Shown: positions 13,806 to 53,755 of the stretch, piece by piece
How the letters are laid out: the number at the start of each line of letters is the position of its first letter
Numbering within the stretch: the first letter of the stretch is position 1
Sequence record: OR699282.2
Direction: 5' to 3' (one strand)
DNA from: Escherichia phage BAU.Micro_ELP-22
Length of the DNA: 64,000 bases
Made by a program: the position numbers and the translations under genes
The notes under the pieces: model-generated
Told to the model about the DNA's origin: nothing
Databases searched by the model: none
What the model saw: the letters and a program-made list of their open reading frames with translations, nothing else

Positions 13806-13834
13806 TTGACATATGAGTGCGTTTTTAATATAAT
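13806..13834 (+). promoter_or_regulatory. Sigma70-type early promoter
   Basis: TTGACA, 17 nt spacer, TATAAT. Confidence 0.6.
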
Positions 13835-27752: not shown

Positions 27753-27895
27753 TGGTGTATACTAATATTTTTACTGGTATTATGCGTAAATTTATTAATG
27801 GTACTGGATACGTATCTAATGACAACGGTAGTACATGGGTAAAAAATAATACGTCTGAATCTTTAGTAAAAAGTCTTCCGTATTATAAAGCTTGA
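27752..27895 (+). CDS. Small hypothetical protein
   Basis: 47 aa; TAATG coupling; below ORF-track threshold. Confidence 0.3.
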   Translation: MVYTNIFTGIMRKFINGTGYVSNDNGSTWVKNNTSESLVKSLPYYKA

Positions 27896-27920
27896 CACAT
27901 GAAAATGGAGTATGTATAAT
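27892..27920 (+). promoter_or_regulatory. Sigma70-type early promoter
   Basis: TTGACA, 17 nt spacer, TATAAT. Confidence 0.65.
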
Positions 27921-30098: not shown

Positions 30099-30387
30099 AC
30101 ATGAAGTAATTCATTTTGATGATAAGATCTATATTCCAAATATTGATAGTACTGAAACATATTACCTAATCAATAAGATTATGGCTGAAACAAATACGTG
30201 TTGTCGTCAACAGCCAGGAAAATATGAGTTCAGTCAGACTATTGGTTATTACCGATATGATATGTTAGAATCATTTACAATTGATAAGTCTAAAGTTATT
30301 GACATTCTTGTACAGAATGGATATAATGAACAACGTGTAAATGATACAGATTTACCAGTTTCAAAAATTGTTCTTTCTAATAATTAA
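30091..30387 (+). CDS. Hypothetical protein
   Basis: 98 aa from ATG 30091 (track start 30028 overlaps upstream gene by 70 nt). Confidence 0.45.
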   Translation: MNKHEVIHFDDKIYIPNIDSTETYYLINKIMAETNTCCRQQPGKYEFSQTIGYYRYDMLESFTIDKSKVIDILVQNGYNEQRVNDTDLPVSKIVLSNN

Positions 30388-33962: not shown

Positions 33963-34298
<336 letters not shown>

Positions 34299-34299
34299 A

Positions 34300-34482
34300 A
34301 TGACACACGAAGAATGGATGTCCAAACAGCATAAAGAACATGACTGCTTTGGGAATGGCATTCGTCAGGTACATTATGATATATTAAGAGATGAAAATCT
34401 TTTCAGGTCATATGTTTTGGATACCAGAAAACCCTGGTTTATATGCGAACTGGCATTTAGAAAGTCAAATAATCAAAACTAA
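34300..34482 (+). CDS. MTHEEW mini-protein family member 3
   Basis: 60 aa; MTHEEWM...WFICELAFRK. Confidence 0.5.
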   Translation: MTHEEWMSKQHKEHDCFGNGIRQVHYDILRDENLFRSYVLDTRKPWFICELAFRKSNNQN

Positions 34483-34498
34483 ACAAGGAATACAAAAA

Positions 34499-34717
34499 AT
34501 GGAAACAACTTTATTAGAAGTTATTCAATCATTAAAACCTGAAGATGAGGTTCAAGTACTACTACATGGTTATCGTGTAAAAGGTACTGTGGTTTTAGTC
34601 AATGATACAACATTGGTTATTACAGAAACAAACCCATATGATAGTAATCAACTTGCCAATATCCATATCGATATCACTGGAATTATTGGTGTCGGTGTAT
34701 CTAAAACACTTGCATAA
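34499..34717 (+). CDS. Hypothetical protein
   Basis: 72 aa from ATG with AGGAA RBS. Confidence 0.45.
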   Translation: METTLLEVIQSLKPEDEVQVLLHGYRVKGTVVLVNDTTLVITETNPYDSNQLANIHIDITGIIGVGVSKTLA

Positions 34718-34770
34718 ATCATTAATTCATTATATAATGATTATCACTGGTTCTAGATGAGGATAATATT

Positions 34771-35043
34771 ATGCATTTTGAAAAATTCAACGTAAATCGT
34801 AACACACGCATTGAAGTTCTTTATGAAACTCAAGACACCATTAGTATTCGTACAAGTAGTGGGGATGTATATCATGACTGTACGATTGGCTGGGAACAGG
34901 GAAGAACGCGTAGTGCAGTATTTGATAATTATCGCTTTTATCAAGGAGACACTACGATTTGGCCTGAATACGTAGAAGATATTGCGTTTGAAGATGAACA
35001 TAAAGATGAATTTATCAAATTTAATCCTCAAACTGAATCATAA
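34771..35043 (+). CDS. Hypothetical protein
   Basis: 90 aa; GAGGA RBS. Confidence 0.5.
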   Translation: MHFEKFNVNRNTRIEVLYETQDTISIRTSSGDVYHDCTIGWEQGRTRSAVFDNYRFYQGDTTIWPEYVEDIAFEDEHKDEFIKFNPQTES

Positions 35044-35048
35044 ATAAT

Positions 35049-35176
<128 letters not shown>

Positions 35177-35180
35177 AAAT

Positions 35181-35282
<102 letters not shown>

Positions 35283-35287
35283 AAACC

Positions 35288-35448
35288 ATGACGCATGAAG
35301 AATGGATGAATGACATTAATTTTAGATATTCGGGTATCGGTAAATGGCTAAAGTATCATTGGGAATTCATTTCAGAGCCACATATGTATGATAAACTTAT
35401 CAACGATCCAGCATATGAAATGTACTTAATTGAACTACTGGTACGAAT

Positions 35449-35452
<4 letters not shown>
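35288..35452 (+). CDS. MTHEEW mini-protein family member 4
   Basis: 54 aa; MTHEEWMNDINF...; below ORF-track threshold. Confidence 0.4.
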
Positions 35453-35614
<162 letters not shown>

Positions 35615-35624
35615 AAAAAAAAGA

Positions 35625-36033
<409 letters not shown>

Positions 36034-36037
<4 letters not shown>

Positions 36038-36061
36038 CTAAATAATTCAGTACTGTATAAT
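36034..36061 (+). promoter_or_regulatory. Early promoter, conserved-spacer family
   Basis: TTGACT-aaataattcagtactg-TATAAT; drives tRNA-Gly. Confidence 0.7.
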
Positions 36062-36063
36062 GC

Positions 36064-36147
<84 letters not shown>

Positions 36148-36167
36148 TTAATAATTCAAAGGTGAAT

Positions 36168-36344
36168 ATGATGCTATCACACAAAACAGCAACTGTTGAA
36201 AATATTGAATCATTATCTGCACAAGAATTGGTTGACAAAATTAAAGAAGTATGTGATAATAATGGCATTGATATGAATGATACATTTATTAGTGTAGGTT
36301 ATGGTGATTTAGAAATTCAATCTAAAACACTATATTATACTTGA
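36168..36344 (+). CDS. Small hypothetical protein
   Basis: 58 aa from ATG with AAGGTGA RBS. Confidence 0.45.
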   Translation: MMLSHKTATVENIESLSAQELVDKIKEVCDNNGIDMNDTFISVGYGDLEIQSKTLYYT

Positions 36345-36362
36345 CTAAATAGTTCAGTACCG
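36341..36362 (+). repeat. Degenerate copy of conserved-spacer promoter (has -35 and spacer, lacks -10)
   Basis: TTGACTaaatagttcagtacc followed by GAAGGAG rather than TATAAT. Confidence 0.5.
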
Positions 36363-36400
36363 AAGGAGATTAATATGTTTAAAGATGAACGTCCAGATTT

Positions 36401-36441
<41 letters not shown>

Positions 36442-36448
36442 GAATTCC

Positions 36449-36788
36449 ACAATCAGACGTATATGGTGTAAGTTACGTCGATGCAATCCAGAACAAGATC
36501 TCTGGTACTCTAGGAAGTGGTGAATGTTAACCTAGACGGGTTTGATAATTGGACGATAGGCAATTATTACTTGACTAGCAGGTTGAAACTAGAGGTGACA
36601 GTCCTTCACCAAACTGGAAAACCGGATGGACTTTTATTTAAAAGGGTAAGGCGTGGAAATATGTTTACAGAAGTTGCTTTTAGTAGCCTGTACGCCCCAC
36701 GTCAAGGTAGCCGAAAGGCAAGTTAAAACGGATGGTTATAAAGCTGAATTAACAGCGGCGTTTAAAAGCGTCACCATCCATTTTTTTT
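36449..36788 (+). ncRNA. Candidate structured non-coding RNA (about 340 nt) within the tRNA island
   Basis: Starts at predicted TSS of promoter 36413; GC-enriched versus flanks; ends in ggatggt...caccatcc stem plus T8; only internal ORF has GTG start. Confidence 0.35.
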
Positions 36789-36804
36789 AATTAAAGTTGG
36801 TGAT

Positions 36805-37194
<390 letters not shown>

Positions 37195-37210
37195 TATTAA
37201 GTATTGATAT

Positions 37211-37456
<246 letters not shown>

Positions 37457-37461
37457 CTAAA

Positions 37462-37626
<165 letters not shown>

Positions 37627-37650
37627 ACGAAATTACAATAGGAAATTAAA

Positions 37651-37836
37651 ATGCAACTTTTAATTCTTTCAATATTGTATATTATTATAATGGTTCCGAT
37701 ATCAATACGTTTAATTACAGTTGAACGATTTTTATCGAAACATGGAAATAGATCTATGATCTTTGTACCAATCGGGTTGATATTGTTTGGTATATTTTCA
37801 TTTATAATGGGAATTAACGCTACATTCATTTCATAG
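37651..37836 (+). CDS. Small membrane protein
   Basis: 61 aa; two hydrophobic helices; AGGAAA RBS. Confidence 0.45.
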   Translation: MQLLILSILYIIIMVPISIRLITVERFLSKHGNRSMIFVPIGLILFGIFSFIMGINATFIS

Positions 37837-37845
37837 GAAACAAAT

Positions 37846-38103
<258 letters not shown>

Positions 38104-38111
38104 GAATTTAA

Positions 38112-38513
38112 ATGAAAAAGAATGACTTGATCAAAATGCTTCAAGAGATTGACGGCAATCCAGAGATTGTTATTTGGAATGGATATGTCGATGATTATAT
38201 GAACATCGAAAAAGGCTTGACTAAAATCACTCTAGTCAAAGAAACTGAACAGTTCCTTCTGGAAGCATTAGTGCACGAATGGTGCAAACGTAACAATACA
38301 TTCGACATTCCAGAAGATCAACGAACTAAGATTGCAGAACGTGCTAAAGAACTGCATAAGAAACGCGAATACGATTTCCAGAACCCACATGTTACTGAAG
38401 ACGAATTCAATCACTGGTACGGTAAAAAGAAATTGACAAAGTATGTCCTTTCACCTAAACTACGTGGTAAGACTTCACTTGGTGTATTCAACGCCGCAGA
38501 CTTAAACTACTAG
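38112..38513 (+). CDS. Hypothetical protein (paralogue of next gene)
   Basis: 133 aa; N-terminus MKKNDLIKMLQEIDGNPEIV parallels next ORF. Confidence 0.55.
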   Translation: MKKNDLIKMLQEIDGNPEIVIWNGYVDDYMNIEKGLTKITLVKETEQFLLEALVHEWCKRNNTFDIPEDQRTKIAERAKELHKKREYDFQNPHVTEDEFNHWYGKKKLTKYVLSPKLRGKTSLGVFNAADLNY

Positions 38514-38522
38514 CGGGTATTA

Positions 38523-39071
<549 letters not shown>

Positions 39072-39073
39072 TA

Positions 39074-39130
<57 letters not shown>

Positions 39131-39143
39131 AGTAAGAGTAAAA

Positions 39144-39316
<173 letters not shown>

Positions 39317-39328
39317 TATCTTACTTCT

Positions 39329-39407
<79 letters not shown>

Positions 39408-39424
39408 CAAAATAAAGGTACACT

Positions 39425-47499: not shown

Positions 47500-47975
47500 T
47501 GTTAACAATAGTGTTGTTGGTAAGTCCATTTGTGTATTTTGTGCTGTATAATATTTTTAGTAATGCTAATCATTTTAAATATGCACAAACAATTGCAAAA
47601 CATGAAGGATTTTGGAATTTTTTCCCAGCGTTACTATGCTCATATCTATACCATGAACGCTATTTCATTTTTCCTGAATATAAAAATTATGGTTATGATT
47701 CTAAAGTAAATGGTATAATTGAGTACTGTATAAGAAATTATCTTAATAATAATGATAACGTCCAAGTAAGAATAGGAAATGGTAATATATCAAGAATAGT
47801 TTTCATACCTGATATACAAGACCCAATATACTTATATCCATATGATTATAGTATTAGTGTAGGTTGTTCGATACATGGTAGTAAATCTATGTACGATTAC
47901 TTTATCTTACCACCAACACAAATTAAATTAATAGAAAAATATTTGAGGGAAAAGTTTGACAACAAAGATTCTTAG
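47499..47975 (+). CDS. Membrane-anchored protein
   Basis: 158 aa; N-terminal TM. Confidence 0.5.
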   Translation: MLTIVLLVSPFVYFVLYNIFSNANHFKYAQTIAKHEGFWNFFPALLCSYLYHERYFIFPEYKNYGYDSKVNGIIEYCIRNYLNNNDNVQVRIGNGNISRIVFIPDIQDPIYLYPYDYSISVGCSIHGSKSMYDYFILPPTQIKLIEKYLREKFDNKDS

Positions 47976-48016
47976 TATTATAATTAACACACCAAGTAAC
48001 CCAAGGGGGATGGAAA

Positions 48017-48899: not shown

Positions 48900-49321
48900 G
48901 AGGCTATAATAAGATTTGTATTTTTGTATTTTTAGTTTGTGCATTCAATTCGTTTGGTTACTACTGTACAGAAAATAATATTTCATATGGTTTAAATCCT
49001 TTGTGGTTTACAATTTCCAATGTAGCACAAATTGGTATTGCTCTTATGTCTGCACTTATGTTCTGTCCAATTGTCACTATGGATACTGATCATGAAAGGC
49101 TTGGATTTCTCCGTGATACTGGAGACGAACCTTACAGTAGATTGATTGTGTTGTATCCATTTATTGTTATTTTAGGTACTAACATCCAACTTGGGTCATT
49201 ATCTAATAGTGTTACATCAGCAGCTATTGCTATATTTGCATTCACATTTTTTATGGTACACAAATCAGTACTTAATTGGTATATCACAAAAATGGCAGAA
49301 GAAGGTACTAAAAATACTTGA
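48896..49321 (+). CDS. Polytopic membrane protein
   Basis: 141 aa; several hydrophobic helices; ATGA overlap. Confidence 0.5.
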   Translation: MRGYNKICIFVFLVCAFNSFGYYCTENNISYGLNPLWFTISNVAQIGIALMSALMFCPIVTMDTDHERLGFLRDTGDEPYSRLIVLYPFIVILGTNIQLGSLSNSVTSAAIAIFAFTFFMVHKSVLNWYITKMAEEGTKNT

Positions 49322-49346
49322 CATAATTTAGTATGTTATATATAAT
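49318..49346 (+). promoter_or_regulatory. Sigma70-type early promoter
   Basis: TTGACA, 17 nt spacer, TATAAT. Confidence 0.6.
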
Positions 49347-49380: not shown

Positions 49381-49632
49381 ATGAACATCGATAAGGTCAA
49401 AGAACTTAGTGCTGCACTAATTAAGAATGAAGAAGTTTGTGAAGAACTTCGCAGTACTATCAAAGTTGAGTACGCACGACTCCAAGGTATGCTTCAAGAA
49501 TCAGAATGGGTAGTAACTAAATCTATCGAAGCAATCTATAAGGATATCGAATCCCTTTTCAACAAGAAAAGTAAGATTGAATCTGATTCATATAACAAAC
49601 GTAAAGAGTTATCTACTGCACTTGGTATCTAA
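49381..49632 (+). CDS. Hypothetical protein
   Basis: 83 aa; AAGGAA RBS. Confidence 0.5.
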   Translation: MNIDKVKELSAALIKNEEVCEELRSTIKVEYARLQGMLQESEWVVTKSIEAIYKDIESLFNKKSKIESDSYNKRKELSTALGI

Positions 49633-49706
49633 AAGTATTTGAGATAACAAATAATATGGAGTACAATGTGCTCCTAATTTAATTATCAGCTAAAAAGGAA
49701 AACATT

Positions 49707-49967
49707 ATGAAATCTATTCTCGTTGCAGTTAACCTGGTTGCTTCCCCATCTTTCAACTTCAAACAAGTTGTTGCTGATAATCTGAAGAAGATCTGTCCAA
49801 ACGCTGAATTAACTTTCTGTGTGTTTGATTCAGAAAAAGTAACTAAAGTTGATCTAAACTATCTTTTGAACGAAGTAAAAAGCGTTTCTGGTGAAAGTAA
49901 CTTAAAAGTTCTTCATGATATTGCAGAAGATTATGATGACACTCTAGTAATTTCGGAGAAATTCTAA
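49707..49967 (+). CDS. Hypothetical protein
   Basis: 86 aa; AAGGAAA RBS. Confidence 0.5.
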   Translation: MKSILVAVNLVASPSFNFKQVVADNLKKICPNAELTFCVFDSEKVTKVDLNYLLNEVKSVSGESNLKVLHDIAEDYDDTLVISEKF

Positions 49968-49972
49968 ATCAA

Positions 49973-50392
49973 ATGATTACATTCATTCAGTACTTAATCA
50001 TTAAATTTTTTGGCTATCATACGATTGAAGGCAAAGCTACACTCGCACATAAAATCTTTGTAGCATTATGTACGGGTGATTATGACGTATTGAATAAGTA
50101 CTGTAAATCTAAAGCATGTATTGATATAATGGCACTTCGTATCTATGAGTGCCGTTCCAATAGATACAATTTTTACCAATACAGATTTGATGAAAAAGAA
50201 TTTGATAGCATCAAAATGCTTAAGAATTTATGTAACAATAAAAAGAATATGCATATATCAGAATTTGTTGCTTTGTATTTTTATTTAAAAAGTTCATTGT
50301 ATATGAACACAATGCAAAGATTCGATACTAGAATTAATGTATTCACCGATAAAGAATTTTATATATACGATAAATTCTTAGATAAGGTTTAA
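49973..50392 (+). CDS. Hypothetical protein
   Basis: 139 aa ORF. Confidence 0.5.
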   Translation: MITFIQYLIIKFFGYHTIEGKATLAHKIFVALCTGDYDVLNKYCKSKACIDIMALRIYECRSNRYNFYQYRFDEKEFDSIKMLKNLCNNKKNMHISEFVALYFYLKSSLYMNTMQRFDTRINVFTDKEFYIYDKFLDKV

Positions 50393-50393
50393 T

Positions 50394-50891
50394 ATGACAA
50401 CTGTTTATATTGATAAACGATTAAATTTATTGATTACCGATTCTAGAGTTACGTCAACTATACCACGAAACTTATTTGGTTTTTTCCCACTAAGACCAAA
50501 ATATCAATATGGAGTTGTTAATCAAAAAACTTTATATGTACATGACCGTTTATTCAGTGCTAGTGGGGTAGTAAGTGAAATTGATAAAGTACTGGATTGG
50601 TTAATTAATAAAGTACCAGTTATACCTGACAGAAAGTTAAGTTGCCATTGTGTGCTTCTTTCTAAAGATTATGTTATTCATATGATTTTAACTAAAGGAA
50701 AGTTTATTAAAAAACTTGAATATCTACATGAAGACTACACTTTCTTTATGGGAAGTGGTGGAGAATACATGCTAGATGCTGCTATTCATGAAGAACATAC
50801 AACTTTATATGATAAAGTGTTTAGTACTTTCATGGATGTGCACAACCATGATTGTTTCACAGATGATAATATTAATGTATATCGATTTTGA
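50394..50891 (+). CDS. HslV-like N-terminal-nucleophile peptidase (proteasome beta-type)
   Basis: 165 aa; starts MTT (Thr nucleophile position as in HslV MTTIVSV); FMGSGGEYMLDAA parallels HslV IGSGGPYAQAA. Confidence 0.55.
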   Translation: MTTVYIDKRLNLLITDSRVTSTIPRNLFGFFPLRPKYQYGVVNQKTLYVHDRLFSASGVVSEIDKVLDWLINKVPVIPDRKLSCHCVLLSKDYVIHMILTKGKFIKKLEYLHEDYTFFMGSGGEYMLDAAIHEEHTTLYDKVFSTFMDVHNHDCFTDDNINVYRF

Positions 50892-50912
50892 TTTCGTCAT
50901 TAGGAGATGTAA

Positions 50913-51878
50913 GTGAAAAAGCTTGATTTAAATACAATTGCCGAAGAAGTTCTGGATGAATGTTTTGCTAATGAAGAAGTCAACACACTAGAAGCCTTAG
51001 ATTTCGTTGAAGATAAAGATGAAAATGAAGGTAAAGTACAAAGCAGTTTCAAATATAATATTACACTTAAGCGACCACCAAATGTTTCCAATGAAGATCT
51101 AATTCGTGATATTCAAGCTGGTATCAATGTAAAGAAAAACACTGAACTGTTAGTTCGTTACAATTATGGACTGATTATTGATGTAGCAAGTAAATGTACT
51201 TGTTATATCCCATTTGAAGATAAGATTTCATATGGTGTTGAGGGGTTCATGAGAGCACTAAAAACCTTTGATCTTAATAAGAATGTTAAGTTCATTACCT
51301 ATGCTTCTTCTAGTATTTACATGACAGTCTATAACGAAAGTTCTGACGCTAACTATATGGTACACTTCCCACGTTATATGAGTGTTCATAAGATCAAAGT
51401 AAAAAGATTCTGTCAGGAATATATGCGTAAACATGGTGTTCGCCCAACTCCTGAAATAATCTCAGAGGGTACTGGGATTGAGATTCAGCATGTTAATAAT
51501 TGTTTGTTATTTCAAAGCGAATACACTTCGCTGGATGCACCATTAGACGGTGTTACAGATGGTACATTAGGTGACATTATTCATTCACCTGCTTCTGATT
51601 TTAACCTCAATGTTGATAGTATCCGTGCACCTTTACGTTATGCTATCAATGAACTGACTAACGAATTGAGTACTAAAGAACGTGAGATTATCCAGCGTGT
51701 TCATGGTCTAGGTGAATATGAACCTGAAACGCTTCGTGAGATTGCTGATAATGGTTTTGTTGATGATAATGGAAAATATGTTAAATCCCGTTCATCAATA
51801 CACCGAAAGTACAGTGAAGCTATGCAAAAGCTTAAGAAGTTAGTACTTGCAAAAGGGTACGAATACGAAGATTTCTAA
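50913..51878 (+). CDS. Sigma-70 family RNA polymerase sigma factor
   Basis: 321 aa, GTG start after AGGAG; region 2-like GVEGFMRALKTFDLNKNVKFITYASSSI and HFPRYM; region 4-like TLREIAD... Confidence 0.65.
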   Translation: MKKLDLNTIAEEVLDECFANEEVNTLEALDFVEDKDENEGKVQSSFKYNITLKRPPNVSNEDLIRDIQAGINVKKNTELLVRYNYGLIIDVASKCTCYIPFEDKISYGVEGFMRALKTFDLNKNVKFITYASSSIYMTVYNESSDANYMVHFPRYMSVHKIKVKRFCQEYMRKHGVRPTPEIISEGTGIEIQHVNNCLLFQSEYTSLDAPLDGVTDGTLGDIIHSPASDFNLNVDSIRAPLRYAINELTNELSTKEREIIQRVHGLGEYEPETLREIADNGFVDDNGKYVKSRSSIHRKYSEAMQKLKKLVLAKGYEYEDF

Positions 51879-51885
51879 AGAACAA

Positions 51886-51911
51886 GGGTTGGCTTATGCC
51901 AACCTTTTTTT
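51886..51911 (+). terminator. Rho-independent terminator
   Basis: ggttggc-ttat-gccaacc hairpin followed by T7. Confidence 0.75.
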
Positions 51912-51914
51912 ATG

Positions 51915-51941
51915 GGATGAAGTAAAAGTTTGTGATATAAT
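51915..51941 (+). promoter_or_regulatory. Probable early promoter (strong extended -10, weak -35)
   Basis: TGTGATATAAT. Confidence 0.4.
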
Positions 51942-51944
51942 TAT

Positions 51945-52430
51945 CTTGTACAATTCTGTTGGCATGATATTCATGTACCTGATCCACTCGAAAACGTAGA
52001 GGGCAGTTGAGCAGTCCGACAGTGCGAACAGCAAAAGAAACCCGTTAGATGTGGGCATAGTTTGAACCCCTCACGGCAATGCGGCTGTATAAAGAACCAC
52101 GTTAGGATAGCTGGTGGTTCCTTGATAGACATATAAGGATAACACCTTACGAATTATCTAAGGGAGAGTTATCGAATTTTGTACAGGAAAGTTGCGTCCA
52201 AAATTTGAGTACTCACATTAAGTATTTGATTGCATAGATACTTAATGAAGATACACTATGTTTAAAAGTGTAGACCGTCATATGAAACTGAAGTAGAGAG
52301 AAACAGGATGACCCGCTTTCGCACTCGTTATGAGTAATCTTCAATGCAATAGCTCTGATACCATCAGCGTCAAATTTCCCTCCTTGTGGGGGGAAGAAAA
52401 ATCCCTTCCTCAAATCCCGTCAATATTAAA
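51945..52430 (+). ncRNA. ORF-free, partly GC-enriched block; candidate structured RNA
   Basis: No + strand ORF of 60 aa or more; first ~150 nt markedly more GC-rich than genome; ends with 8-bp hairpin ttccctcc/ggggggaa. Confidence 0.3.
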
Positions 52431-52966: not shown

Positions 52967-53755
52967 ATGAGCACTATAGATGAACTGATTCGACGGAATT
53001 CAAAATATTACCAACCATCAGAAATTGTAGGTAACATTACCAAATCAGAGTTTGGTCCAAATACTCGAAAACTCATTCATGTAATGTCACGTGATGGCTT
53101 TAAATGTGATTGTTGTGGTGAATCAAATGTAGTATTCACTTTACACAAGCACAGTACTAAAGAACGTTATAAATTCAGACCTTATGTACTTAAAGGGAAA
53201 CGCCTTGTACGCATGACGTTAGACCATAATGTACTGGACTGTCTTCAGGGCGGTAATGATAAAGAGAACATGACTGCACTGTGTGAAGATTGTAACGCAT
53301 TACGCCAGCATAAGTTTGCTGAATACAGTGAGTTTAAACACTGGTATCATAACGCGGATCGTTCAATCGAGCCTGACGTTAACTACTGCTTCATTGAGTA
53401 CATTAAGAATGCCAAAGATACATACATTCTTAAATCAATGTCACCTATTACCGTGTTTCCTGAGAACCTATTCACTACATTAAAGAATAGTTTTATTGTA
53501 GGTGATATTGATGCATTCAAGTATTTTGACAAAGGTGCAAAACATTTTGAAATTCAATGTCTTAGTACTGCACTATGTGAACTCATTAAAATTTACATAA
53601 AAGAGTATTTGGGTATTGACAATGTACGTGTACCAGAGTATACTTTTTCTATTGAATTCGATTGTGAATCAATCAAAGAGTTTGGAATTCTTTTCAATAA
53701 ACAAATAGAACTTGCAATTCAAAACGAAATCAAGTACTATACTACTAACATTTAA
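52967..53755 (+). CDS. HNH endonuclease (probable free-standing homing endonuclease)
   Basis: 262 aa; Cys cluster FKCDCCGE; HNH core TLDHNVLDCLQGGNDKENMTALCEDCNALRQH. Confidence 0.7.
   Translation: MSTIDELIRRNSKYYQPSEIVGNITKSEFGPNTRKLIHVMSRDGFKCDCCGESNVVFTLHKHSTKERYKFRPYVLKGKRLVRMTLDHNVLDCLQGGNDKENMTALCEDCNALRQHKFAEYSEFKHWYHNADRSIEPDVNYCFIEYIKNAKDTYILKSMSPITVFPENLFTTLKNSFIVGDIDAFKYFDKGAKHFEIQCLSTALCELIKIYIKEYLGIDNVRVPEYTFSIEFDCESIKEFGILFNKQIELAIQNEIKYYTTNI

What the first reader, a model, noticed from the sequence alone, without database searches (positions are those of the whole stretch)
50394..50891. HslV-like Ntn peptidase without an HslU partner nearby
The ORF begins MTT (Thr nucleophile position as in HslV) and contains GSGGEYMLDAA, matching the HslV/proteasome beta GSGG block. 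No AAA+ unfoldase gene is adjacent. A phage proteasome-type peptidase could process phage proteins or target host factors.
Basis: partly seen in the sequence, partly recalled or inferred. Interest (0 to 1): 0.65.

Follow-up and report, generated by a model that had tools for sequence, protein, structure and literature searches.

The report
Orphan proteasome-like peptidase of jumbo phage
This early gene of a 350-kb E. coli jumbo phage encodes a small, very diverged relative of the proteasome/HslV threonine peptidases that keeps the conserved catalytic residues I could map by alignment but has no unfoldase partner; such orphan phage proteasome homologues are already catalogued but none has a known function.

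Summary
ORF 50394..50891 (+, 165 aa) starts MTT and contains GSGGEYMLDAA. The window is an Asteriusvirus-type (121Q/PBECO4) jumbo phage, and the gene is 121Q gp166.

Across 28 homologues (19-84% identity) Met1-Thr2-Thr3, Asp16, Thr20, Gly58, Gly120-Ser121-Gly122 and Asp153 are invariant, and Lys45 is at least 90% conserved. This matches the Thr1/Asp17/Lys33/Ser129/Asp166 set.

It is not HslV proper. Pfam and the NCBIfam HslV models give no hit, helix H2 is missing, and the S3/S4 hairpin is about 13 residues longer. There is no HslU/ClpX-like gene in the window, and by indirect record counts the phage clade lacks one.

It forms a small phage family (phrog_24804) distantly linked to phrog_1040, which is probably the 'PPH' of Fuchs et al. 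2021.

It sits in a host-sigma70 (early) operon with the phage sigma factor, is absent from the virion proteome, and is under purifying selection. This makes it a new variant of a known kind, of moderate interest.

Side finding: about 1 kb downstream (51979-52395) lies a covariation-supported, roughly 420-nt structured RNA with no Rfam family. It is multi-copy in jumbo phages and also present in enterobacterial prophages.

The parts
50394..50891 (+). CDS of the 165-aa proteasome-family (T1, Ntn) threonine peptidase homologue (121Q gp166 / phAPEC6 gp067c orthologue; PHROG 24804)
50397..50399 (+). Codon of Thr2, the predicted N-terminal nucleophile (Thr1 after Met removal). There is no propeptide.
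   Evidence: Invariant M1-T2-T3 in 28/28 family members and in 11 of the 12 phrog_1040-group sequences aligned (the twelfth, P0154, is called with a 5-residue leader before MTT); aligns with HslV Thr1
50439..50441 (+). Codon of Asp16, equivalent to Asp17 of HslV/20S beta
   Evidence: Invariant; aligned to HslV Asp17
50445..50516 (+). Residues 18-41: elongated S3/S4 beta-hairpin, about 13 residues longer than in HslV/20S. It carries the clade-conserved R25 and F31-P32-L33.
   Evidence: AF2 strands E18-27 and E31-41; 11-residue gap in HslV in hhalign; Asp-to-Lys spacing of 29 versus 16; this is the insertion site named in PMC8665760
50526..50528 (+). Codon of Lys45, the only conserved Lys and the inferred equivalent of catalytic Lys33
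   Evidence: At least 90% conserved. hhalign places it 2 residues off HslV Lys33, so the strand register is ambiguous.
50751..50759 (+).
   Evidence: Invariant; aligned to HslV GSGG
50850..50861 (+). Codons of Asp153-x-x-Thr156, with 20S-like Asp166/Ser169 spacing, inside the conserved C-terminal motif D-x-[YF]-[TS]-D-D-N
   Evidence: D153 invariant, T/S156 conserved; aligns with the D-x-x-T of phrog_1040
49318..49346 (+). Perfect sigma70 consensus promoter (TTGACA-17-TATAAT) heading the operon 49381..51878
   Evidence: 5 perfect sites in the window, all on the + strand, 0.11 expected
50913..51878 (+). Co-transcribed phage sigma-70-family factor (regions 2, 3 and 4). It starts 21 nt after the peptidase stop codon.
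   Evidence: synteny
51884..51907 (+). Intrinsic terminator closing the operon
   Evidence: annotated as a terminator in the UE-S1 orthologous locus

Best explanation
The gene encodes a catalytically competent N-terminal-threonine hydrolase of the proteasome (MEROPS T1 / Ntn) superfamily. It belongs to a small, phage-restricted lineage (PHROG 24804).

Shown: the alpha-beta-beta-alpha Ntn fold; conservation of the catalytic set Thr1, Asp17, Lys33, Gly-Ser129-Gly and Asp166/Ser169 across the family; strong purifying selection; position in an operon headed by a perfect host sigma70 promoter and shared with the phage sigma factor; absence from the virion proteome of an orthologous phage.

Shown for the window, inferred from record counts for the clade: absence of an HslU/ClpX-type gene.

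Inferred: host methionine aminopeptidase removes Met1 and exposes Thr2 as the nucleophile, since there is no propeptide. The enzyme acts inside the infected cell early in infection as a peptidase on host or phage proteins. Helix H2 is absent; in my recollection it is part of the HslU/alpha-ring-facing surface. The S3/S4 hairpin next to the active site is elongated, at the site where connectase carries its specificity lid. For both reasons the enzyme most likely does not dock HslU in the canonical way. It more likely works as an unfoldase-independent, substrate-selective peptidase, like the other orphan proteasome homologues (PPH, BPH, Anbu). Its substrate is unknown.

For: Catalytic residues: invariant M1-T2-T3, D16, T20, G58, G120-S121-G122 and D153, with K45 at least 90% conserved, across 28 sequences at 19-84% identity. 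They map onto HslV in an end-to-end hhalign (Prob 90%, E 1.7e-7).

Selection: dN/dS about 0.08 against a 75%-identical orthologue.

Family: only 15-18 clusters in databases of 5.8 and 1.8 billion proteins, all aligned from residue 1. The family links to phrog_1040 'peptidase HslV family'.

No unfoldase; none is adjacent in any related contig examined.

Early operon.

Non-structural: phAPEC6 gp067c is not among the 62 virion proteins, and a separate prohead protease gp227c exists.

H2 loss and the S3/S4 site.
Against: There is no biochemical evidence for any member. Pfam Proteasome and the NCBIfam HslV models do not detect the protein. The Lys33 and Gly47 equivalences have a 1-2 residue register ambiguity, and I could not inspect active-site geometry in the model. 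The oligomeric state is unknown, and isolated proteasome-type subunits are usually inactive outside an assembled ring (PMC8665760). Independence from host HslU is argued only from missing or remodelled surface elements. AAA+ families other than HslU/ClpX were not searched for across the whole phage genome.
Confidence: 0.7

Rival explanations
1. Hybrid protease: the phage protein assembles into HslV-like rings and uses the host's HslU ATPase. It either replaces host HslV or competes with it, and so redirects ATP-dependent degradation in the infected cell.
For: HslV is the top structural match. The phage clade lacks its own HslU/ClpX-like gene, inferred from record counts. From my own knowledge, the known hosts (Escherichia, Klebsiella, Salmonella, Erwinia) all encode HslU. 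Two GenBank records annotate the gene as an HslV subunit.
Against: Identity to E. coli HslV is only about 16-19%, and the curated HslV models give no hit. Helix H2 is absent and the S3/S4 hairpin is remodelled; by my recollection of the HslVU structures, this hairpin includes the region of HslV Lys28 that receives the HslU C-terminus. The family scores slightly closer to the orphan phage family phrog_1040 than to HslV.
Confidence: 0.15
2. Connectase-like enzyme: a sequence-specific transpeptidase/ligase or single-site processing enzyme rather than a degradative protease. The elongated S3/S4 hairpin would act as the specificity element, and the protein may work as a monomer or small oligomer.
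Against: The insertion is a beta-hairpin extension, not the two-helix lid. H1 is retained, whereas connectase lacks both H1 and H2. There is no C-terminal domain. No candidate substrate motif was identified.
Confidence: 0.1
3. Catalytically inert scaffold or decoy: for example a protein that titrates host HslU or another partner, or a purely structural phage component that only retains the fold.
For: Many proteasome-fold proteins (alpha subunits, some beta subunits) are inactive. No activity has been shown for any phage homologue.
Against: The whole catalytic set, including the N-terminal Thr, is conserved at 19% overall identity. The protein is absent from virions. dN/dS is about 0.08.
Confidence: 0.04

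Closest known systems
HslV (ClpQ), the peptidase subunit of bacterial HslVU (MEROPS T01.006; NCBIfam TIGR03692 / NF003964)
   Same: Same Ntn alpha-beta-beta-alpha fold. It is the best solved-structure match. The mature N-terminus is made by Met removal (MTT...). Asp17, Thr21 and the GSGG block align. Similar size (165 vs 176 aa).
   Different: No hit to the curated HslV models or Pfam PF00227. About 16-19% identity. Helix H2 is missing. The S3/S4 hairpin has a 13-residue insertion. Asp166/Ser169-type spacing is 20S-like. There is no hslU neighbour and, by indirect record counts, no HslU-like gene in the phage clade.
[quoted passage not shown]
   Same: Phage-encoded, compact, no propeptide (MTT start). 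Lacks helix H2. Orphan, with no unfoldase partner. HMM link at E 9e-6 and hhalign Prob 65-91%. Bridged by the Salicola SCTP-2 gp54 / P0031 group at 98% and 78%.
   Different: A separate PHROG (24804, 'unknown function'). The insertion lies between Asp17 and Lys33, whereas phrog_1040 has the canonical 16-residue spacing there and extra residues between Lys33 and Gly47. The C-terminal motif is D-x-Y-T-D-D-N versus D-x-x-T-G-G. The family is confined to RaK2-like jumbo phages and a few metagenomic relatives. Identity of phrog_1040 with PPH, or of this family with the paper's RPC or DPH clusters, could not be verified.
Connectase (MJ0548; proteasome-like protein ligase)
   Same: Proteasome-like fold with Thr1 directly after Met. 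No unfoldase. A family-specific element at the S3/S4 site next to the active site.
   Different: Connectase lacks both H1 and H2, has a two-helix lid and often a C-terminal beta-barrel, and is found in archaeal methanogens. Here H1 is present, the insertion is a beta-hairpin, and there is no extra domain.
BPH and Anbu (bacterial orphan proteasome homologues)
   Different: They retain H1-H4 (Anbu also has H5) and form defined ring or helical assemblies. They are cellular, not viral, and show no sequence-level link.

Membership tests
Proteasome-type Ntn hydrolases (MEROPS family T1 / Pfam PF00227 superfamily) | Four-layer alpha-beta-beta-alpha Ntn fold | tested here: met
Proteasome-type Ntn hydrolases (MEROPS family T1 / Pfam PF00227 superfamily) | N-terminal Thr nucleophile exposed at residue 1 of the mature chain | tested here: met
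   M1-T2-T3 is invariant in 28/28 members, all aligned from residue 1. An in-frame stop 4 codons upstream fixes the start. Actual Met removal was not tested.
Proteasome-type Ntn hydrolases (MEROPS family T1 / Pfam PF00227 superfamily) | Asp17, Lys33, Gly47, Ser129 and Asp166/Ser169 equivalents | tested here: met
   D16, G58, G120-S121-G122 and D153 are invariant, K45 is at least 90% conserved and T/S156 is conserved. D16 and GSG align directly to HslV. K45 and G58 carry a 1-2 residue register ambiguity.
Proteasome-type Ntn hydrolases (MEROPS family T1 / Pfam PF00227 superfamily) | Score above the Pfam PF00227 gathering threshold | tested here: not met
   No hit for the window protein even at E up to 10. 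Only 3 of 28 members hit, with best E 0.0013. The E. coli HslV control scores 89.9 bits.
HslV proper (HslVU peptidase subunit) | Match to the curated equivalog models TIGR03692 / NF003964 | tested here: not met
   No hit at E up to 10. The E. coli HslV control scores 288 and 304 bits against cut-offs of 158 and 137.
HslV proper (HslVU peptidase subunit) | Cognate hslU gene adjacent or in the same genome | tested here: not met
   Nothing in the window. HslU-like hits occur in 4 'Escherichia' and 5 'Klebsiella' phage records, against 32 and 10 records that carry this gene. No unfoldase is adjacent in 10 related loci.
HslV proper (HslVU peptidase subunit) | Helices H1 and H2 forming the HslU-facing surface; short S3/S4 hairpin | tested here: not met
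   In the AF2 model H1 (residues 60-72) is followed by a loop (73-83), so there is no H2. The hairpin (18-41) is elongated. hhalign shows the matching gaps.
HslV proper (HslVU peptidase subunit) | Dodecameric double hexameric ring activated by HslU-ATP | not testable with these tools
   No multimer prediction or biochemistry was available.
PPH (Fuchs et al. 2021) / PHROG 1040 | Compact phage-encoded proteasome homologue lacking H2, without propeptide | tested here: met
   The length is 165 aa rather than about 140 because of the hairpin insertion.
PPH (Fuchs et al. 2021) / PHROG 1040 | Sequence clustering with PPH representatives | tested here: inconclusive
   The reference WP_042125023.1 could not be retrieved. 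With phrog_1040 as a proxy: hmmscan E 9e-6; hhalign Prob 65% for the core and 86-91% for the full alignment. The best PHROG is the separate family 24804. Cluster accessions do not match the paper's PPH, RPC or DPH representatives.
Connectase | Loss of both H1 and H2, two-helix lid in S3/S4, ligase activity on a specific motif | tested here: not met
   H1 is present and the insertion is a beta-hairpin. Activity is not testable.

The most novel reading that the evidence does not exclude
The elongated S3/S4 hairpin makes this a self-sufficient, sequence-specific processing enzyme: a proteasome-fold 'scalpel' rather than a degradation chamber. A lytic jumbo phage would express it from an early host-sigma70 promoter, together with its own sigma factor. 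It would cleave or ligate one defined regulator, for example maturing the phage sigma factor's acidic N-terminal extension, or inactivating a host sigma factor or a defence protein. Proteolysis by a proteasome homologue would then be part of the phage's transcriptional take-over switch.
Probability: 0.12. Interest if true: 0.75.

Novelty: new variant of a known kind. Interest (0 to 1): 0.42.

Why it matters
Proteasome homologues encoded by phages were catalogued bioinformatically in 2021, but none has an assigned substrate, oligomeric state or role in infection. This family is a conserved early gene of the RaK2/121Q-like jumbo phages. It is only 165 aa, keeps an intact catalytic set, and combines two structural departures (no H2, extended S3/S4 hairpin). 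It also belongs to cultivable E. coli phages with a genetically tractable host in which hslU can be deleted. That makes it a practical system for asking whether a proteasome-fold enzyme can work without an unfoldase, and what a lytic phage uses it for. If it does hijack host HslU, that would be a new type of host-protease capture. Practically, the finding corrects the annotation: the label 'ATP-dependent protease subunit HslV' in some records overstates what is known, and 'hypothetical protein' understates it.

Tried and rejected
Searches that gave nothing or little:
- Pfam on the protein and on all 28 members: essentially negative.
- PDB sequence searches with the single sequence and with the profile: only spurious hits.
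- hhalign against a single HslV sequence: too weak (Prob 11%). It needed a real HslV profile, which I built from E. coli-like sequences plus Gram-positive hslV found on contaminating 'phage' records.
- The search for related loci with the family alignment: failed because no stretch was conserved enough.
- The third big protein search, with bridge protein P0031: only 2 hits.
- AFDB50 fold search: unavailable.

Ideas tested and rejected:
- Matching cluster accessions to the PPH, RPC and DPH representatives of Fuchs et al.: no match, so the named cluster stays unassigned.
- 'Functionally coupled to the sigma factor through conserved synteny'. The adjacency holds in 121Q-like, RaK2, Munch, Hallingskeid and one metagenomic contig. 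It is lost for P0022, P0026, P0029, P0031, P0033 and Salicola SCTP-2, and the whole block is collinear within the clade. It is therefore weak evidence.
- 'The upstream, translationally abutting ORF 49973..50392 is a partner'. It has no detectable homologue next to the gene in other phages.
- 'It is the head-maturation protease'. It is absent from the virion proteome, and a separate T4-type prohead protease exists.
- 'A second copy or paralogue lies in the window'. None was found.

I did not try to get round the restriction on structure-prediction inputs, so no oligomer model was made.

Full report
**1. Observation**

The window carries an ORF at 50394..50891 on the + strand. It encodes 165 aa, begins MTTVYIDKRLNLLITDSRVTS and contains GSGGEYMLDAA at residues 120-130. 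An in-frame TAG lies four codons upstream with no possible start in between, and an AAGG Shine-Dalgarno element precedes the ATG. The N-terminus Met-Thr-Thr is therefore firm.

The window is 99% identical to Asteriusvirus-type E. coli jumbo phages of about 350 kb (121Q, PBECO4, JP4, phAPEC6). The gene is 121Q gp166 / phAPEC6 gp067c. Most records call it hypothetical. Two (fEgEco12, Turkey3) call it 'ATP-dependent protease (subunit HslV)'.

**2. What it is**

*Sequence libraries are nearly silent.*
- Pfam gives nothing.
- The NCBIfam HslV equivalogs give nothing, while E. coli HslV scores 288 and 304 bits.
- PDB sequence searches give nothing meaningful.
- PHROGs places the protein in phrog_24804 (unknown function, E 2e-103). 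It has a weak second hit to phrog_1040 'peptidase HslV family' (E 9e-6).

*The family is tiny.* There are 15 clusters in 5.8 billion proteins. A profile search finds 18 among 1.84 billion representatives, all aligned from residue 1.

*The structure prediction is confident.* pLDDT is 86.7 and pTM 0.78. The fold is unambiguous:
- Foldseek agrees, with HslV best at TM 0.53-0.59.

*The catalytic residues are conserved.* In a 28-sequence alignment spanning 19-84% identity, the invariant columns are M1, T2, T3, D16, T20, G58, G120, S121, G122 and D153. T15 and K45 are at least 90% conserved.

I compared this alignment with a genuine HslV profile. I built that profile from E. coli-like HslVs and from Staphylococcus, Listeria, Enterococcus and gut-bacterial HslVs. 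The match is end-to-end (1-165 to 1-172, Prob 90%, E 1.7e-7). It aligns T2 with Thr1, D16 with Asp17, T20 with Thr21, and GSGG with the HslV GSGG (Ser124 in HslV, Ser129 in 20S).

K45 is the only conserved lysine and must be the Lys33 equivalent. hhalign places it two residues out of register, so I mark this equivalence as inferred. D153-x-x-T/S156 has the Asp166/Ser169 spacing of 20S beta subunits.

The gene is under strong purifying selection: dN/dS is about 0.08 against the 75%-identical fEgEco12 orthologue, though dS is saturated. It is single-copy in the window.

**3. How it differs from HslV**

The model has helix H1 (60-72) followed by a loop (73-83), so H2 is missing. Strands 18-27 and 31-41 form a long hairpin. 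In the HslV alignment these appear as an 11-residue insertion between Asp17 and Lys33 and a deletion of about 20 residues after H1. The Asp-to-Lys spacing is 29 residues, against 16 in HslV, 20S and phrog_1040.

Fuchs, Alva and Lupas (2021, PMC8665760) surveyed proteasome homologues. They report that only PPH and RPC lack H2, and that S3/S4 is a recurrent insertion site, the one where connectase carries its substrate-specificity lid. [quoted passage not shown]

PHROG 1040 fits that description, and I infer but could not verify that it is PPH. Its members include SPN3US gp1, Machina-like ORF1, and phages of Klebsiella, Proteus and E. coli. They are 153-169 aa and start MTT (VTT in one record).

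Profile-profile comparisons give a chain of similarity:
- this family to the Salicola SCTP-2 gp54 / P0031 group: 98%
- that group to phrog_1040: 78%
- phrog_1040 to HslV: 97%
- this family directly to phrog_1040: 65% (E 6e-5)
- this family directly to HslV: 53% (E 1.3e-4)

The protein is therefore a separate, more diverged branch of the HslV-derived 'group I' proteasome homologues. It is nearest to the phage PPH-like proteins, and its insertion sits at a different place. Accessions in its clusters do not match the paper's PPH, RPC or DPH representatives. Assignment to one of those named clusters remains open. BFVD shows that proteasome-fold proteins are common in large phages.

**4. Context**

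*No unfoldase.* There is no HslU-like sequence in the window. In the phage collection, HslU/ClpX-like genes occur in only 4 'Escherichia' and 5 'Klebsiella' records, whereas this gene occurs in 32 and 10. I infer from these counts that the clade lacks such a partner; I did not check which records those hits are. None of ten related loci has an adjacent unfoldase.

*Early operon.* The gene lies in an operon that starts at a perfect sigma70 consensus promoter (49318-49346). It runs through three small ORFs, the peptidase and the phage sigma factor (50913..51878; Sigma70 r2/r3/r4). It ends at a strong terminator (51884-51907). Five such perfect promoters occur in the window, all on the + strand, against 0.11 expected. 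This argues for early transcription by host RNA polymerase.

*Synteny with the sigma factor is weak evidence.* Adjacency is kept in 121Q-like phages, RaK2, Munch, Hallingskeid and one metagenomic contig at 30% identity. It is lost in six more distant relatives, and the whole block is collinear in the clade. I therefore treat it as weak evidence for functional coupling. The abutting upstream ORF is not conserved.

*Not a virion or head-maturation protein.* In phAPEC6 the orthologue is not among the 62 virion proteins, and a separate T4-type prohead protease exists.

**5. Mechanism**

The best-supported reading (confidence about 0.7) has three steps.
- Met1 is removed, and Thr2 acts as the N-terminal nucleophile with Asp16 and Lys45. 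Ser121 and Asp153 would then play the supporting roles of Ser129 and Asp166.
- The enzyme works in the cytoplasm early in infection.
- Because H2 is missing and the S3/S4 hairpin is remodelled, it probably does not form a canonical HslVU complex. It more likely acts as an unfoldase-independent, selective peptidase.

The fold, residue conservation, selection, promoter and terminator, and absence from virions are shown. The lack of an unfoldase is shown for the window and inferred from record counts for the clade. Met removal, catalytic activity, oligomeric state, HslU independence and the substrate are all inferred.

Rivals:
- a hybrid with host HslU (0.15)
- a connectase-like ligase or processing enzyme (0.10)
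- an inactive decoy (0.04)

**6. Novelty and score**

Orphan HslV-like genes in jumbo phages have been noted before (PMC7823757), and phage proteasome homologues have been catalogued (PMC8665760). I found no experimental study of any of them.

This family is an uncharacterised and structurally distinct branch. It combines H2 loss with an S3/S4 extension, and PHROGs lists it as of unknown function. I rate it a new variant of a known kind, with interest about 0.4.

**7. Side finding**

Just downstream of the operon's terminator lies an ORF-poor, GC-richer stretch.

*Distribution.* It is conserved at the nucleotide level even where the flanking proteins are only 30-35% identical. It occurs in 61 jumbo-phage records at 3-5 copies per genome, almost always unannotated.

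*No known family.* Rfam gives no hit.

*Covariation.*
- RNAalifold predicts 80 pairs, of which 47 show double-sided compensatory changes.
- 96% of cells are paired, against 36-46% when partners are slid, and 0 of 500 shuffles reach the observed values.
- With 32 non-redundant copies the picture holds: 96.8% paired against 39-47%, and 41 pairs with double changes against 17-26.
- The structured core in the window is 51979-52395.

*Beyond jumbo phages.* A motif scan plus nhmmer found full-length homologues in nine bacterial assemblies, including a complete Serratia fonticola chromosome. In most of those examined the element lies in a low-GC island next to a large serine or tyrosine integrase, and in five of them next to a CI-type repressor; the S. 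fonticola copy instead sits beside ParB/RepB-like genes and tilS. These are prophage or mobile-element-like islands.

This looks like an undescribed class of phage-associated structured RNA and deserves its own investigation.

Noticed in passing
window 51979-52395 (+); conserved extended -10 TGTGATATAAT at about 51936-51946; terminal hairpin at about 52378-52395: A structured RNA of about 420 nt with no Rfam family. It is better conserved than the flanking proteins. It occurs 3-5 times per genome in 61 RaK2-like jumbo-phage records across 9 host genera. Full-length homologues occur in nine bacterial assemblies, in most of those examined next to an integrase and in five next to a CI-type repressor (prophage or mobile-element-like islands). 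Covariation is strong: 96-97% of cells paired against about 40% in slid controls, 41-47 pairs with compensatory double changes, and 0 of 500 shuffles reaching the observed values. The related phage PA5oct has a highly expressed 451-nt ncRNA002 (PMC7318152); homology to it was not tested.
   Followed up: partly
window 13806-13834, 27892-27920, 30299-30327, 47956-47984, 49318-49346 (all +): Five perfect sigma70 consensus promoters (TTGACA-17-TATAAT), all on the + strand, against 0.11 expected by chance. They are probably strong early promoters read by host RNA polymerase. Similar perfect sites occur in related loci.
   Followed up: partly
window 50913-51878 (+): The phage sigma-70-family factor has regions 2, 3 and 4 starting only at about residue 80. 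A strongly acidic N-terminal stretch of about 75 residues precedes them, reminiscent of region 1.1 or a pro-sequence. Its gene follows the peptidase gene by 21 nt.
   Followed up: no
window 33985-39408 (+): A tRNA cluster. ARAGORN finds 7: Gly-tcc twice, Ser-tga, Ser-gct, Met, Asn and Thr. Rfam also finds 7, but the sets differ. Rfam misses the tRNA-Gly at 33985-34057 and adds a borderline tRNA-like hit at 35181-35259 (29.3 bits against a cut-off of 29) right after tRNA-Ser.
   Followed up: no
window 50394-50891, residues C84/C86 and H50-D51-R52: Within the closer clade (15 sequences) a C-x-C pair (C84 invariant, C86 at least 90%) at the start of the strand after the H1 loop is conserved. So is an H-D-R turn after Lys45. 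Both are lost in more distant members. The function is unknown; it could be a redox or metal site, or an interface.
   Followed up: no
L017 (Erwinia phage Gungnir39) 61-522; L011, L018 (pSal-SNUABM-04, SPN3US) gene 1: Members of the sister family phrog_1040 sit in very different contexts. In the 48-kb phage Gungnir39 the gene lies between the head-tail adaptor and head-closure genes. In SPN3US- and Machina-like jumbo phages it is the first gene of the genome, next to tRNAs. This suggests different roles for different phage proteasome homologues.
   Followed up: no
phage collection records OR845448.1, OR851086.1, OR844988.1, OR849164.1, OR846616.1 and others: Several records labelled as phages (UNVERIFIED_ORG) carry bona fide bacterial hslV/hslU at 97% identity to the host, or Gram-positive hslV. 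They are probably host-DNA contigs, so 'phage HslV/HslU' counts from such collections are inflated.
   Followed up: partly
window 52967-53755 (+): An HNH endonuclease gene (so annotated in JP4 and fEgEco12) lies about 570 nt downstream of the structured RNA, after two small ORFs. In CBB a 267-aa ORF follows that phage's copy of the RNA. Whether the RNA copies are associated with homing-endonuclease-like genes was not examined.
   Followed up: no
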